Shown piece after piece: positions 14,181 to 55,959 of a stretch of 64,000 nt of DNA. A program made the translations under genes and the position numbers. Source of the stretch: the human T2T-CHM13v2.0 reference genome, Homo sapiens; assembly GCF_009914755.1 (NCBI RefSeq), contig NC_060934.1; one strand, written 5' to 3'. Below the pieces are notes generated by a model. The model did not search any database. It was not told the origin of the DNA and saw nothing but the letters and a program-made list of their open reading frames with translations. Numbering within the stretch: position 1 is the stretch's first letter; each line of letters begins with the position of its first letter.

Positions 14181-14246
14181 GGTTTGAAAGTATTCTTGAA
14201 GGGCTGTTTGGACCTGCATTATTAAAAGATCTCAGTTTATTTAAAG
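14181..14246 (+). CDS. LCOR: LCOR upstream exon (nominally 5' UTR), putatively coding (G)[21 protein letters not shown]
   Basis: cctttcag| ... AAG|gtattc; 66 nt, phase 1/1, stop-free; resembles LCORL [22 protein letters not shown] (from recall). Confidence 0.85.
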
Positions 14247-14583
14247 GTATTCAAAATATTTTTGGTATTTCAAATTCTTCCTGGTGCCATACATGATACG
14301 TTGGTGTTTTAAGCCTCAGTCTCCTTTTTATTCACGGTTTCATGTGGGTTAAAGCTATATTCATGTAAGCATCTTTTTGTGTTTAGTTGATATTGTTAAT
14401 ATATGTATGAATAATGTATTAACTAGTGAGCAGTTAAGACTTAAGAATTTAAGAGTTAAAATTTTTAAGACAAATATGGCCTAACTACTTAGTTTTTTGT
14501 TAAACAATATTTTTGAAATTAATTCTAATTTATTTTCCTAAAAATTCTCTTTTATGACTATTAATTTGTTACTATTTTTGCAG

Positions 14584-14663
14584 ACTGTGAACCTGAAAGC
14601 ATTTCTGATTGGACTTTTGATGAAAACTGTTTATTCTGTTGCTTGAGAAGAGATAAAGTAAAG
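14584..14663 (+). CDS. LCOR: LCOR upstream exon (nominally 5' UTR), putatively coding [27 protein letters not shown]
   Basis: tttttgcag| ... AAG|gtaact; 80 nt, phase 1/0; resembles LCORL [24 protein letters not shown] (from recall). Confidence 0.85.
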
Positions 14664-14911
14664 GTAACTAAGAAGCCTGTGAAACTTTTATTTAGTGTAG
14701 TATTTTAAAGTTTTCATCTTTTAAAACATTGTGTTACTTTGTTGGAGGATTTGTAGGAAAAGGAAGGTATGGTTTCATACTTAGTTATGAAAGAGTTTGA
14801 TAGTAATCCTGGGTTTTGCAATTTAAGTTATTTCCATCCTGTTGATTAGCCTATTAAGAAACCTATATCCTACCATGCATTTATTGTTGTTATTTTGTTT
14901 TTTTGCTTTTT

Positions 14912-15206
14912 TGTTTTTTTTTTATTTTGAGACGGAGTCTCTCTGTGATGCCCAGGCTGGAGTGAAATGGCACGATCTCTGCTCACTGCAGCCGCCGCCT
15001 CCTGGGTTCAAGCGATTCTCCTGCCTCAGTCCCGAGCAGCTGGGATTACAGGCACCTGCCACCACACCAGCTAATTTTTGTATTTGTAGTAGAGATAGGG
15101 TTTTATCATATTGGGCAGGCTGGTCTTGAACTCCTAACCTCAAGTGATCTCCTGCCTCAGCCTCCCAAAGAGCTGGAATTACAGGCATGAGCCACCGCGC
15201 CCAGCC
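14912..15206 (-). mobile_element. AluS
   Basis: Antisense Alu dimer. Confidence 0.93.
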
Positions 15207-15639
15207 CATGCATTGTTTTATTTATATAGTTCACTAGGCAGAATAATTAATTGTCTCAAACTGTTGTGTTTATTTAAAAAATGAAATGTGTGGTAATTCA
15301 AGTAATGGGAGTTATTTTTAGTACAAAAAGAACAGTAATGTAGATCTGGATCAAGCAGTTACTAATTCATGTAGATGATGATATACTATGGTTTCTACTT
15401 TAAGACACTTCTTCATAATATCTGGGCATGAATGCTATTATTTTTAATTGTATAAACTGGGTGAACCTTTGTGTATTTGTTGTTTTATTGCTTTGTTTTA
15501 AACATAAACAGAATTTTGTTAGAAAACATTTCACTTGTTGGAAACATTTATTAATAGTGGTTTACTACTTTTTTTTTTCATGGTACATCCATTCCCTGTT
15601 TTAAAGCCTTGAAAATGCTTTCTTCTGCCGTATACACTC

Positions 15640-15931
15640 TTTTTTTTTTTGAGATGGAGTCTCACTCTGTCATCCAGGCTGGAGTGCAGTGGCGCGATCT
15701 CTGCTCACTGCAGGCTCCCCCCTCCGGGTTTACGCCATTCTCCTGCCTCAGCCTCACGAGTAGCTGGGACTACAGGCGCCCGCCACCTCGCCCGGCTAAT
15801 TTTTTGTATTTTTAGTAGAGACGGGGTTTCACTGTGTTAGCCAGGATGGTCTCGATCTCCTGACCTTGTGATCCGCCCGCCTCGGCCTCCCAAAGTGCTA
15901 GGATTACAGGCGTGAGCCACCGCGCCCGGCC
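15640..15931 (-). mobile_element. AluY
   Basis: CpG-rich with AluY diagnostics; TSD TTCTTCTG.C.TATACACTCTT. Confidence 0.93.
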
Positions 15932-54100: not shown

Positions 54101-54629
54101 CCGGGAATACTTATAGTCTCTATTTATAGAGAGGAAAGTTAGAGTTATAAATACTCCTTAGTGTGACAGAAGCGTTATTACTAGTAGAGTAAGCCTCATT
54201 AAACTCCAGAAGATGAAATAAATAGCACAACTTTGTGACCATCTTCTGGTATTGAATATCGTCCTTTCGGGGGAAAAAATTGCCTGTTCTTAGGAGTCCT
54301 GTGAGGTTTTGATGATGTATTTGTTTGTTGTTTATTATGGAGATTTTAGATTTTAGTAATTAGAGTCAGTTTTTCTTTAACTTTATAAATTAAACTCTTA
54401 AGTTCCTTACAGCCCCAAAATACTGTGGGTAAAGTTATTTGCCTTCTATAGCTAATCTTTAAAAGACTAAAGAAACCTTGGTTTTCTGAGAACTGTCTTG
54501 TAAAACCTCAAAAGTGTGGTGGGAAGCAAAGGTCACAGGTAAAACAGTAAGATCAGGGGAAGAGTTTTAATTGAGAGTCTTATCACTAATCACCTATATA
54601 AATTTGTAGTGGCCACTTACTCTTTTGAT

Positions 54630-54899
54630 CACATTTCCCTTTTTTTTTTTAAAGGACTATTTCATGTTGATTGACCTATTTAGTATTTAACTAAATTGAA
54701 TACACACTTTAGACCAGGCAAGATTAGGTATATAGAGGTACACAGAGGTAAACAAACACATTTCCCTCATTTTATTTTTTTAAAAGGACTATTTCATGGT
54801 GATTGATTTGATTGACCTATTTAGTATTCAGCTAAATCGAATACACTTTAAATCAGGCAAGATTAGGTATTTAGAGGTACACAGAGGTAAACAAACACA
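54630..54899. repeat. Diverged tandem duplication of about 130 bp
   Basis: Two copies of CACATTTCCCT..AAAGGACTATTTCATG..AGAGGTACACAGAGGTAAACAAACACA. Confidence 0.92.
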
Positions 54900-55223
54900 G
54901 TCTCAGCTCTTGAGAAGCTTAGTCTTCCTGATTGACTATTATAGTGTGGTAATTATAGAGGCATGATGATAATATATTTATACAAGTCATTTTCCCTTTC
55001 ATCTTAACCTCTTTTGCCTTTCAAAGTCTCTTCCAGTGCTAAAAGTTCTTCGAGTTAATGAGTTCTTATGGTTTAAACTTAACATTGACTAGAAATTGAT
55101 AATTTAGATGTTTATTTCATTATTTTATTTTTTTTTACTAGTTGGCAGAGTTTATTTAAAGTACTCCTGGAAAATATGTGATTTTTCTTAGGCTTTTGAG
55201 ATTTGACATTTAAACACCTAGCC

Positions 55224-55400
55224 CAGAGGTTCTACAGTTGTGGTCCCCAGACCAGCAGCATCTAAGAACTTGTTAGAATGCCAGTTCTTGAGCCCACCCT
55301 AGAACTACTGAATCAGAAACTCTGGGGAGAGAACCCAACAAGCTGTTTTTGCAAAGCTGTCAGGGTGATTCTGATGAACATTAAAGTGTGAGAATGATTG
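55224..55400 (+). mobile_element. MER5A hAT-Charlie element
   Basis: GTGGTCCCCAGACCAGCAGCATC..ACTGAATCAGAAACTCTGGGG..GGTGATTCTGATG. Confidence 0.8.
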
Positions 55401-55909
55401 CCCTAGCCTAAAATGGATCTTAAAATTAAGTATCTCCTTTTATAATCTTGGTATGCCTTCTGTCTTTAATATAAAGTAAATTAAGCACTCATGAACTCAG
55501 TAATGCATTCTTCAAATATTTAGGAGAAGGTGGCTGAGGAAAAAGTCTAGGGTTACTTGATGTGACCTATAGGTGTGTTAACATGAGAGTATTTCCTAAG
55601 TGAAGGGTTTTGGGATTTCTGTATCAGGTAAGTGATTCTTGCCCATAAGATATTCTAGTTGTTATCCCTTTATTTAATTTCATAATATTCAATTATTATA
55701 TGGGGGAAGATGTTTAGAATTATTTTAATAAAAATTTTATTTTTAAAAATAGACAACTCAAAAGCTTAGAAAACATAAGTCAAAGGGGAGATACTATTTT
55801 TAAGATAACTGCATTTTAAGAAAAATAAAATGAAATTTTATGTTTACTTGAAAGCTGTCTTTTTTAGTACATTGTCCCACTTTAAAAGTAAATAAATCTT
55901 TATTTACAG

Positions 55910-55959
55910 ACAGTCCCTGGGTCTCCGACCCCAATATTCCCCTAGTGGCCCGTGAGATC
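55910..55959 (+). CDS. LCOR: 5' part of the ATG exon, in-frame extension [17 protein letters not shown]
   Basis: In frame with ATG 55960; DPNIPLVA is shared with LCORL [20 protein letters not shown] (from recall). Confidence 0.8.

What the first reader, a model, noticed from the sequence alone, without database searches (positions are those of the whole stretch)
14181..55959. Hidden N-terminal protein domain of LCOR/PALI1 encoded in the nominal 5' UTR exons
Seen: four segments with canonical AG/GT sites (14181-14246, 14584-14663, 51015-51147, 55910-55959; 329 nt) join with matching phases (1/1, 1/0, 0/1, 1). They form a stop-free frame running straight into ATG 55960: (G)[113 protein letters not shown]. 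From recall: canonical LCOR is 433 aa starting at MQRM, whereas the paralog LCORL translates a homologous region ([28 protein letters not shown].FC...E.QAE..LNA.F.KK...DPNIPLVA). Inference: LCOR, and PALI1 which shares these exons, has an N-terminally extended form with at least 110 extra residues. No in-frame Met occurs in the window, so initiation must be in an upstream exon, at an AUG or a near-cognate codon. cDNA constructs starting at MQRM would lack this domain.
Basis: partly seen in the sequence, partly recalled or inferred. Interest (0 to 1): 0.9.

Follow-up and report, generated by a model that had tools for sequence, protein, structure and literature searches.

The report
Unannotated conserved N-terminus of LCOR/PALI1
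Exons listed as the 5' untranslated region of human LCOR encode a conserved protein segment of about 142 residues, so the standard LCOR and PALI1 proteins used in research probably lack their true beginning.

Summary
The four segments have AG/GT sites and join into 329 nt that are open only in the frame of ATG 55960. Shuffles give this in 46 of 100000.

The missing start lies outside the window. Exon 1a, at the annotated gene start, carries an ATG with A at -3 and G at +4 and a phase-1 donor that fits exon 14181. That gives a 142-residue extension.

All five exons match LCORL coding exons on chr4 in order, length and phase. dN/dS is 0.12. The extension is 86-99% identical from turtle to cat and 71% to carp, and it occurs in hagfish and amphioxus.

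The human translation equals the start of a gibbon model. Predicted proteins of many vertebrates already carry the extension.

Human RefSeq probably starts at MQRM because its transcript inserts exon 1c after 1a, which breaks the frame.

Translation in human cells was not tested here. My literature searches found no description. This is a new member of a known kind, a missed AUG-initiated N-terminal extension, with practical consequences.

The parts
14181..14246 (+). Exon 2, 66 nt, phase 1/1, annotated as 5' UTR. It encodes the most conserved block of the domain (the FESILEGL motif). Its phase-1 acceptor receives four upstream exons that lie OUTSIDE the window (window place = L007 position - 61800). 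Exon 1a is at -60789..-60688 (L007:1011-1112), with its ATG at -60784. Exon 1b runs from its ATG at -60045 to -59969 (L007:1755-1831). Exon 1c is at -59681..-59608 (L007:2119-2192). Exon 1d runs from its ATG at -59291 to -59246 (L007:2509-2554).
   Evidence: It is 76% identical to the LCORL exon at C4:17955151-17955213. These columns are nearly invariant in A1 and A2. Upstream exons. Exon 1a is 68% identical to LCORL exon 1 and 100% identical to residues 1-33 of P0035.
14584..14663 (+). Exon 3, 80 nt, phase 1/0, annotated as 5' UTR. It encodes C56 and the C70-x2-C73 pair. It also holds an out-of-frame ATG with an 8-codon uORF.
   Evidence: It is 56% identical to the LCORL exon at C4:17945303-17945377, which has the same length and phases.
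51015..51147 (+). Exon 4, 133 nt, phase 0/1, annotated as 5' UTR. It encodes a variable linker and then a conserved predicted helix (QAExxLNAxF). An out-of-frame ATG at 51034 opens a 49-codon uORF.
   Evidence: It is 40% identical to the LCORL exon at C4:17944234-17944350.
55910..55959 (+). The 5' part of exon 5, annotated as 5' UTR: 2 bases plus 16 codons that run straight into ATG 55960.
   Evidence: All 120 listed orthologs cover it. The DPNIPLVA block is shared with LCORL.
55960..56197 (+). Annotated start ATG (context gagatcATGc) and the first annotated coding part. This Met aligns with an internal Met of LCORL and lies inside a predicted helix.
59005..59098 (+). The next annotated coding exon, shared by LCOR and PALI1. 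The PALI1-specific coding part follows outside the window as one open frame of 1455 codons at window places 87674-92017.

Best explanation
The LCOR gene encodes a conserved N-terminal domain that the curated human annotation leaves in the 5' UTR.

The ancestral reading starts at the ATG of exon 1a, 5 nt inside the annotated transcript start. It splices in phase 1 directly to exon 14181 and runs through exons 14584, 51015 and 55910 into what is now called Met1 (MQRM). This adds 142 residues, giving about 575 aa for LCOR and about 1699 aa for PALI1.

Mammals also have two alternative first-exon sets (1b+1c, and 1d) with their own in-frame ATGs. These replace only the first 33 residues.

When exon 1c is spliced in after exon 1a, the ATG of 1a becomes a 47-codon upstream ORF and the main frame has no ATG before MQRM. 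That form is most likely the one RefSeq curated, which would explain the annotated start.

The domain is mostly helical and carries cysteines conserved from amphioxus to human (C5, C10, C70, C73).

Shown here: the frame, the splice phases, the ATGs, the homology, the conservation and the codon-level constraint. Inferred: that human cells make the extended proteins, that the cysteines bind zinc, and that the domain mediates protein contacts.
For: 1. The 329 nt are open in one frame only (stops 5, 13 and 0). Shuffles reproduce this in 46 of 100000.
2. Exon 1a has agaagATGg and 32 codons, and its donor phase fits exon 2. An in-frame stop lies 50 codons upstream of the ATG with no other ATG between.
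3. Five LCOR exons match five collinear LCORL exons on the minus strand of chr4 with the same phases and nearly the same lengths (66 vs 66, 80 vs 80 and 133 vs 130 nt). Identities are 68, 76, 56, 40 and 45%.
4. Across 85 ungapped codons of the 'UTR' blocks against LCORL, differences at codon positions 1/2/3 are 20/15/40. dN is 0.22, dS is 1.78 and dN/dS is 0.12.
5. The human joined translation (252 aa) is identical to the start of the gibbon model P0035.
6. Identity of the extension to cat, elephant, wallaby, platypus, bird, turtle and carp is 99, 97, 92, 89, 87, 86 and 71%. The adjacent annotated 110 aa score 99, 99, 96, 95, 93, 91 and 57%.
7. All 120 listed ortholog representatives carry sequence upstream of MQRM. 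Of these, 25 have the full 1a->2 form, 26 have ..1c->2 and 14 have 1d->2.
8. The domain is present in hagfish (P0146), chimaera (P0126) and amphioxus (P0350).
9. On a 1a->2 mRNA, MQRM is the sixth ATG, behind one in-frame and four out-of-frame ATGs.
10. The annotated Met lies six residues into a predicted helix, 135-158 of P0121.
Against: No direct evidence of translation in human cells was available.

The transcript-derived protein P0004 (a cluster of 15 members), whose sequence upstream of MQRM, apart from its first residues, matches the human translation, shows the 1a->1c->2 form. In that form an in-frame TGA in exon 1a is followed by no ATG until MQRM.

The selected RefSeq transcript has 8 exons, 5 of them in the window. 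The PALI1-specific coding part is one exon, so two exons lie upstream, which is consistent with 1a+1c.

No 1a->2 junction from a human transcript was seen here.

The ATG of 1a is only 5 nt from the annotated start, which would normally favour leaky scanning. The TISU-like match that could compensate is only 10 of 12, and matches at that stringency are expected 1.9 times per 10 kb by chance.

LCOR is not among the 192 peptide-supported upstream regions of PMC11317171 (0 occurrences in the text and in 1 supplementary file).

The 120 orthologs were selected with a query that included 16 upstream residues, so models starting at MQRM rank lower and were not counted.

The structure models have low confidence (pTM 0.24-0.25).
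Confidence: 0.75

Rival explanations
1. The frame is a coding relic in human. It is ancestral and still used in other vertebrates, but human LCOR mRNAs mostly carry exon 1c after exon 1a. The exons then act as a long, uORF-laden 5' UTR and the protein starts at MQRM as annotated.
For: The 1a->1c->2 form exists (P0004, 15 members). It has an in-frame stop and no ATG before MQRM. The exon count of the selected RefSeq transcript fits two upstream exons (with the hub table). Curated RefSeq keeps coding from 55960.
Against: The human ATGs, donors, acceptors and frame are all intact for three separate first-exon routes. The human sequence is identical to the gibbon model over 252 aa. Ape and monkey models use in-frame first exons. 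On that mRNA MQRM lies behind five ATGs. The 47-codon uORF would end upstream of several exon junctions, which by the established NMD rule should destabilise the mRNA (inference).
Confidence: 0.15
2. The domain is translated in human mainly from the mammal-specific first exons (1b+1c or 1d). Most extended proteins then lack the exon-1a part, with its C5/C10 knuckle, and begin with other short N-termini.
For: Among the 120 ortholog representatives, 26 use ..1c->2, 9 use ..1c->3 and 14 use 1d->2, against 25 that use 1a->2. The chimpanzee, orangutan and Nomascus models use 1b->1c. The human genome keeps both ATGs and both phase-1 donors.
Against: Exon 1a is the part homologous to LCORL exon 1 and is conserved to amphioxus. 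The gibbon, capuchin and macaque models use 1a->2. The annotated human gene start is exon 1a.
Confidence: 0.3
3. On the RefSeq-type mRNA (1a->1c->2) the extension is made from a near-cognate codon between the in-frame TGA of exon 1a and exon 2 (in-frame ACG, GTG and CTG codons are present). This would give a shorter extension of roughly 120-150 residues without the exon-1a peptide.
For: The frame is open for 43 codons upstream of exon 2 in that form, and near-cognate codons can be read directly in the sequence. Most peptide-supported extensions in PMC11317171 start at near-cognate codons (passages).
Against: The strong ATG of exon 1a lies upstream in another frame and should capture scanning ribosomes. 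The exon-1a sequence in that frame is not the conserved one. LCOR has 0 occurrences in the text and the 9 supplementary files of the non-AUG extension study PMC9789052.
Confidence: 0.1
4. The open frame is a chance feature of UTR exons.
For: None beyond the current annotation.
Against: Shuffles reproduce it in 46 of 100000. There is exon-by-exon homology to LCORL, dN/dS of 0.12 and conservation to fish and amphioxus.
Confidence: 0.01

Closest known systems
N-terminus of the paralog LCORL (PALI2 shares it)
   Same: Five collinear exons with the same phases and nearly the same lengths. The same motifs are present: a C-x4-C knuckle, RGFRx[17 protein letters not shown], DCEPE, C-x2-C, QAExxLNAxF and DPNIPLVA. 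The annotated LCOR Met aligns with an internal Met of LCORL.
   Different: In LCORL these exons are read as coding in the database models (for example P0128). That the curated human LCORL also starts there is recalled, not checked. LCORL exon 1 has a poly-alanine run after its ATG, and its exon 4 is 3 nt shorter and diverged (40%).
Conserved AUG-initiated N-terminal extensions missed or added late in human annotation (cases such as NHSL1, WWC3 and HELZ2 in PMC11317171)
   Same: An upstream in-frame region conserved far beyond mammals that completes a conserved domain and has an ATG start (passages).
   Different: LCOR is not in that study's list. Here the ATG is in frame only in some splice forms, and no peptide evidence was seen. 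That paper states that almost all upstream ATG regions are already annotated, so LCOR would be an exception.
[quoted passage not shown]
   Same: The ATG sits 5 nt from the annotated transcript start. The sequence GAAGATGGCGAG matches 10 of 12 positions, including the AAGATGGCG core.
   Different: The last two positions differ. Matches with up to 2 mismatches are expected by chance 1.9 times per 10 kb. Neither YY1 binding nor translation was tested.
Amphioxus LCORL-like protein (P0350) and the Mblk-1/E93 family
   Same: It has the same N-terminal domain and a C-terminal HTH_psq. The domain predates the LCOR/LCORL duplication.
   Different: The amphioxus protein has two psq-like motifs (read by eye). 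H30 and C56 are not conserved. I did not examine whether insect E93 has the domain.

Membership tests
LCOR/LCORL family N-terminal domain | Sequence homology to the LCORL N-terminal coding exons | tested here: met
   Genome-wide six-frame searches with each LCOR exon peptide return the LCORL locus as the only other hit: 68%, E 1e-8; 76%, E 0.02; 56%, E 0.001; 45%, E 6e-8. A local tblastn finds the fifth exon at 40%.
LCOR/LCORL family N-terminal domain | Conserved exon order, length and intron phase | tested here: met
   The phases are the same at all four junctions. Exon lengths are 66 vs 66, 80 vs 80 and 133 vs 130 nt.
LCOR/LCORL family N-terminal domain | Presence in orthologs across vertebrates and outgroups | tested here: met
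   It is found in teleost, sturgeon, turtle, bird, platypus, marsupial and placental LCOR, in shark, chimaera and hagfish LCORL-like proteins, and in amphioxus.
AUG-initiated N-terminal extension (misplaced annotated start) | An in-frame upstream AUG with no stop before the annotated AUG | tested here: met
   This is met for the splice forms 1a->2, 1b->1c->2 and 1d->2. It is not met for 1a->1c->2, which has a TGA in exon 1a and no ATG after it.
AUG-initiated N-terminal extension (misplaced annotated start) | Protein-level purifying selection on the extension | tested here: met
   dN/dS is 0.12 against LCORL over 85 codons. Identity to orthologs equals or exceeds that of the adjacent annotated coding part.
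AUG-initiated N-terminal extension (misplaced annotated start) | Evidence of translation (ribosome footprints or peptides) in the species concerned | not testable with these tools
   No Ribo-seq or mass-spectrometry data were on hand. LCOR is absent from the lists of PMC11317171 and PMC9789052.
TISU element | Match to SAASATGGCGGC at or just after the transcription start, containing the start ATG | tested here: inconclusive
   There is a 10-of-12 match at L007:1012-1023, one base after the annotated start. Five such matches occur in 10 kb against 1.9 expected.
Zinc-binding domain (Cys knuckles) | Four conserved metal ligands | tested here: inconclusive
   C5 and C10 are invariant and C70 and C73 are at least 90% conserved in 43 sequences including amphioxus. 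H30, C31 and C56 are less conserved. The geometry could not be judged because pTM was 0.24.
Zinc-binding domain (Cys knuckles) | Match to a known zinc-finger family or solved fold | tested here: not met
   Pfam: no family for P0121, P0126 or the N-terminus of P0047, and only a sub-threshold Perm-CXXC hit (E 0.21) in P0128. PDB profile search: 0 hits at E up to 1. Foldseek: 0 hits at E up to 0.001.

The most novel reading that the evidence does not exclude
The 142 residues are the true N-terminus of human LCOR and PALI1. They form an undescribed domain, conserved from amphioxus to human, built of helices around a four-cysteine site (C-x4-C ... C-x2-C). Translation starts at a cap-proximal, TISU-type AUG. 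Exon 1c acts as a switch: inserted after exon 1a, it breaks the frame and turns the mRNA into a poorly translated or decay-prone form. On this reading, two decades of LCOR work and all PALI1 work used N-terminally truncated proteins, and variants in these exons are misclassified as UTR variants.
Probability: 0.3. Interest if true: 0.8.

Novelty: new member of a known kind. Interest (0 to 1): 0.62.

Why it matters
LCOR is studied as a nuclear-receptor corepressor and in breast cancer (recalled). PALI1 is a PRC2.1 accessory subunit needed for mouse development (PMC8864842, passages).

Published constructs follow the annotated start. PMC8319299 assembled 'full-length' PALI1 as residues 1-1557. 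If the extension is real in human cells, those proteins lack 142 residues that are as well conserved as the annotated coding part next to them, or better. Interaction maps, antibodies, knock-outs designed around 'exon with Met1' and size estimates would all need a second look.

A review states that PALI1 and PALI2 share no extensive homology beyond the PRC2, CTBP and EED motifs (PMC8864842). With the extension they share a whole N-terminal domain.

Clinical and population variants in 14181-14246, 14584-14663, 51015-51147 and 55910-55959 are currently scored as UTR variants.

The case is also a clear example of a curated start kept because of one splice form, while automated models in many other species read the longer frame.

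Tried and rejected
- Pfam on the four exon peptides and on P0121, P0126, P0047 and P0128. Nothing covers the domain: only HTH_psq at the C-terminus of P0047, and a sub-threshold Perm-CXXC hit in P0128.
- PDB sequence profile with A1: 0 hits at E up to 1.
- ESM Atlas with P0121 residues 1-160: only LCORL clusters, scores 0.82-0.87.
- AlphaFold2 twice. With 40 sequences: mean pLDDT 53, pTM 0.25. With 97 sequences: mean pLDDT 58.5, pTM 0.24. The helices were reasonably confident but their packing was not.
- Foldseek against PDB with the second model: best E 2.9, nothing usable. I did not run the VIA searches because the model's packing is unreliable.
- Complex prediction, two copies of residues 1-160 plus zinc. 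The verdict was 'no answer' (score 0.00, the partner's own fold was uncertain, the alignment was not used). This is no evidence either way.
- Search for a human counterpart of the short first exon of P0002, and of several other species-specific N-termini, in the 75 kb upstream region and the window: no convincing hit.
- Literature. Ten searches found no description of an extended LCOR or PALI1. The peptide strings occur in 0 papers.
- The PhyloCSF paper lists only the LCOR alternative final exon and the C10orf12 merge. 8 supplementary files were searched; files 1 and 8 were not.
- Conway 2018 and Fernandes 2003 are not held, so I could not check what they say about the 5' exons.
- Chance ORF: rejected.
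Full report
OBSERVATION. The four segments are bounded by AG and GT. Joined, they give 329 nt with 5, 13 and 0 stops in the three frames, and the open frame is that of ATG 55960. When each exon is shuffled on its own, the required frame stays open in 46 of 100000 trials.

THE MISSING START. The whole genome is searchable, and the window is G000:C10:97774001-97838000. 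I fetched the region around the annotated gene start as L007, where window place equals L007 position minus 61800.
- At L007:1016, five bases after the annotated start (1011), lies an ATG in the context agaagATGg.
- It is followed by 32 codons and a phase-1 donor, G|GTGAGA, after position 1112.
- The single G completes the GG that opens exon 14181 to give Gly, so a direct 1a->2 splice puts this ATG in frame.
- The extension is 142 residues. In-frame, a stop lies 50 codons upstream of the ATG with no other ATG between.
- On such an mRNA, MQRM (context gagatcATGc) is the sixth ATG. Four out-of-frame ATGs lie in between, with uORFs of 3, 8, 49 and 18 codons.

Two more first-exon routes are intact in the human sequence.
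- Exon 1b has its ATG at L007:1755 and a donor after 1831. It is followed by exon 1c (2119-2192).
- Exon 1d has its ATG at L007:2509 and a donor after 2554.
- Both routes end in phase 1 and are in frame.

PARALOG. Six-frame searches of the genome with each exon peptide return, besides LCOR itself, only the LCORL locus on the minus strand of chr4, in the same order:
- exon 1 at 18003952-18004044 (68%, E 1e-8)
- exon 2 at 17955151-17955213 (76%)
- exon 3 at 17945303-17945377 (56%)
- exon 5 at 17891446-17891685 (45%)
The first look missed exon 4. A local tblastn found it at 17944234-17944350 with 40% identity. Read with their flanks, all LCORL exons have the same phases as the LCOR exons and lengths of 66, 80 and 130 nt against 66, 80 and 133. 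The annotated LCOR Met aligns with an internal Met of LCORL. Over 85 ungapped codons of the blocks annotated as UTR, differences at codon positions 1/2/3 are 20/15/40. Nei-Gojobori gives dN 0.22, dS 1.78 (pS 0.68, near saturation) and dN/dS 0.12.

ORTHOLOGS. A search with the 95-residue exon-5 peptide found 635 proteins at E up to 0.001 among 710 candidates, of which 120 were listed.
- All 120 carry at least 32 residues upstream of MQRM. This is biased, because the query included 16 upstream residues and proteins starting at MQRM rank lower.
- Sorted by their 5' ends: 25 have the full 1a->2 form, including gibbon P0035, capuchin P0023, macaque P0033, cat, elephant, marsupials, platypus, turtle and three birds. 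A further 26 have ..1c->2, including chimpanzee, orangutan and Nomascus. Then come 14 with 1d->2, 9 with ..1c->3, 5 with 1a->3, 2 with 1d->3, 17 bird models with 1a->4, and 22 other or partial.
- The human joined translation from the ATG of exon 1a to base 59098 (252 aa) is identical to the start of P0035.
- Identity of the extension to cat, elephant, wallaby, platypus, bird, turtle and carp is 99, 97, 92, 89, 87, 86 and 71%. The adjacent annotated 110 residues score 99, 99, 96, 95, 93, 91 and 57%.
- Short isoforms with the domain come from sharks, a chimaera and a hagfish.
- A profile search of 1.84 billion representatives gave 330 hits at E up to 0.001. One of them, P0350, is named as an LCORL-like protein of Branchiostoma lanceolatum. 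The domain therefore predates the LCOR/LCORL duplication.

WHY REFSEQ STARTS AT MQRM. If exon 1c follows exon 1a, the ATG of 1a reads a 47-codon ORF that ends inside 1c. The main frame then has a TGA in exon 1a and no ATG until MQRM.
- This form exists. The transcript-derived protein P0004 (15 members) reads exon 1a in the other frame, then 1c, then exon 2.
- The selected RefSeq transcript has 8 exons, 5 of them in the window. The PALI1-specific part maps to a single 1455-codon open frame at window places 87674-92017. Two exons must therefore lie upstream, which fits 1a+1c. This is inference, because the upstream exon table was not visible.
- The acceptor of exon 1c is AAG|G, while that of exon 2 is CAG|G behind a long pyrimidine tract. 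Skipping of 1c is therefore plausible.
- Which form dominates in human tissues is the main open point.

THE CAP-PROXIMAL ATG. A 5-nt leader normally promotes leaky scanning. TISU elements (SAASATGGCGGC) direct accurate initiation from very short leaders (PMC3177215, passages). L007:1012-1023 matches TISU at 10 of 12 positions, including AAGATGGCG. Matches at that stringency are expected 1.9 times per 10 kb by chance, and 5 were found. This is a lead only.

NATURE OF THE DOMAIN.
- No Pfam family covers it, and no solved structure is related by sequence.
- In 43 sequences including amphioxus, C5, C10, R14, R18, R25, L28 and G33 are invariant. C31, the VGFESILEG block, D63, W64, C70 and C73 are at least 90% conserved.
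- H30 and C56 are lost in the amphioxus or the unnamed divergent homolog.
- AlphaFold2 predicts helices at 8-32, 34-42, 44-53, 71-89, 97-121 and 135-158. Block pLDDT reaches about 80 but pTM is only 0.24. The annotated Met is residue 141 of that protein, inside the last helix.
- Foldseek found nothing.
- My reading is a helical protein-interaction module with a possible four-cysteine zinc site. This is inference.

LITERATURE.
- Ten full-text searches found no description of an extended LCOR or PALI1.
- PMC8319299 built PALI1 as residues 1-1557 (passages).
- PMC5343783 names a 'mammalian Mlr motif' in a figure legend without giving its place.
- LCOR is absent from the peptide-supported upstream regions of PMC11317171 (text and 1 supplementary file) and from PMC9789052 (text and 9 files).
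- The PhyloCSF paper lists only the C10orf12 merge. Files 1 and 8 of its supplements were not searched.
- Conway 2018 and Fernandes 2003 are not held.
- I could not consult Ensembl/GENCODE or UniProt human entries, so an existing human model with the long frame cannot be excluded.

VERDICT. The region is coding sequence under purifying selection, and all parts needed to translate it are intact in human. Automated models in many species already read it, but the curated human annotation and the literature I could search do not. Direct proof of translation in human cells is still needed.

Noticed in passing
window 51034-51147 joined to 55910-55945: An out-of-frame ATG at 51034 opens a 49-codon upstream ORF. 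It crosses the exon junction and ends at TAG 55943-55945, 14 nt before the annotated ATG 55960. Together with the 8-codon uORF in exon 14584-14663, it should hinder scanning to MQRM.
   Followed up: partly
L007:1012-1023 (window places -60788 to -60777, outside the window): GAAGATGGCGAG, a 10-of-12 match to the TISU/YY1 element, lies directly on the annotated transcript start and contains the ATG of exon 1a. It is not significant by count alone (5 found in 10 kb, 1.9 expected).
   Followed up: partly
L009, C4:18004045-18004083 (minus strand): LCORL exon 1 carries a run of about 14 alanine codons (GCC/GCT repeats) between its ATG and the conserved C-x4-C motif. A further in-frame ATG lies 21 nt upstream of that ATG. 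LCOR exon 1a has no such run.
   Followed up: no
P0094-P0120 (bird LCOR models): Seventeen bird models join exon 1a directly to exon 4 (junction ...HC|EHLV...), skipping the two most conserved exons. A different donor must be used to keep the frame. Other bird models (P0116-P0118) have the full form.
   Followed up: no
L007:2119-2192 (exon 1c, outside the window): The 24-residue reading of exon 1c is identical between the human sequence and a marsupial model (P0066). That is unusually high conservation for a mammal-specific alternative 5' exon. It could reflect coding use after exon 1b or a regulatory role.
   Followed up: partly
window places -62455 to -60629, minus strand (hub table; outside the window): By its listed span, the lncRNA LOC102723665 overlaps LCOR exon 1a on the opposite strand. 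Unstranded transcript assemblies that read through exon 1a into intron 1 (for example P0187, P0189, P0195) may come from this bidirectional promoter rather than from LCOR.
   Followed up: no
window 22437-22920, minus strand: The HMGN2P35 processed pseudogene lies in the long intron between exons 14584-14663 and 51015-51147. I did not examine it.
   Followed up: no
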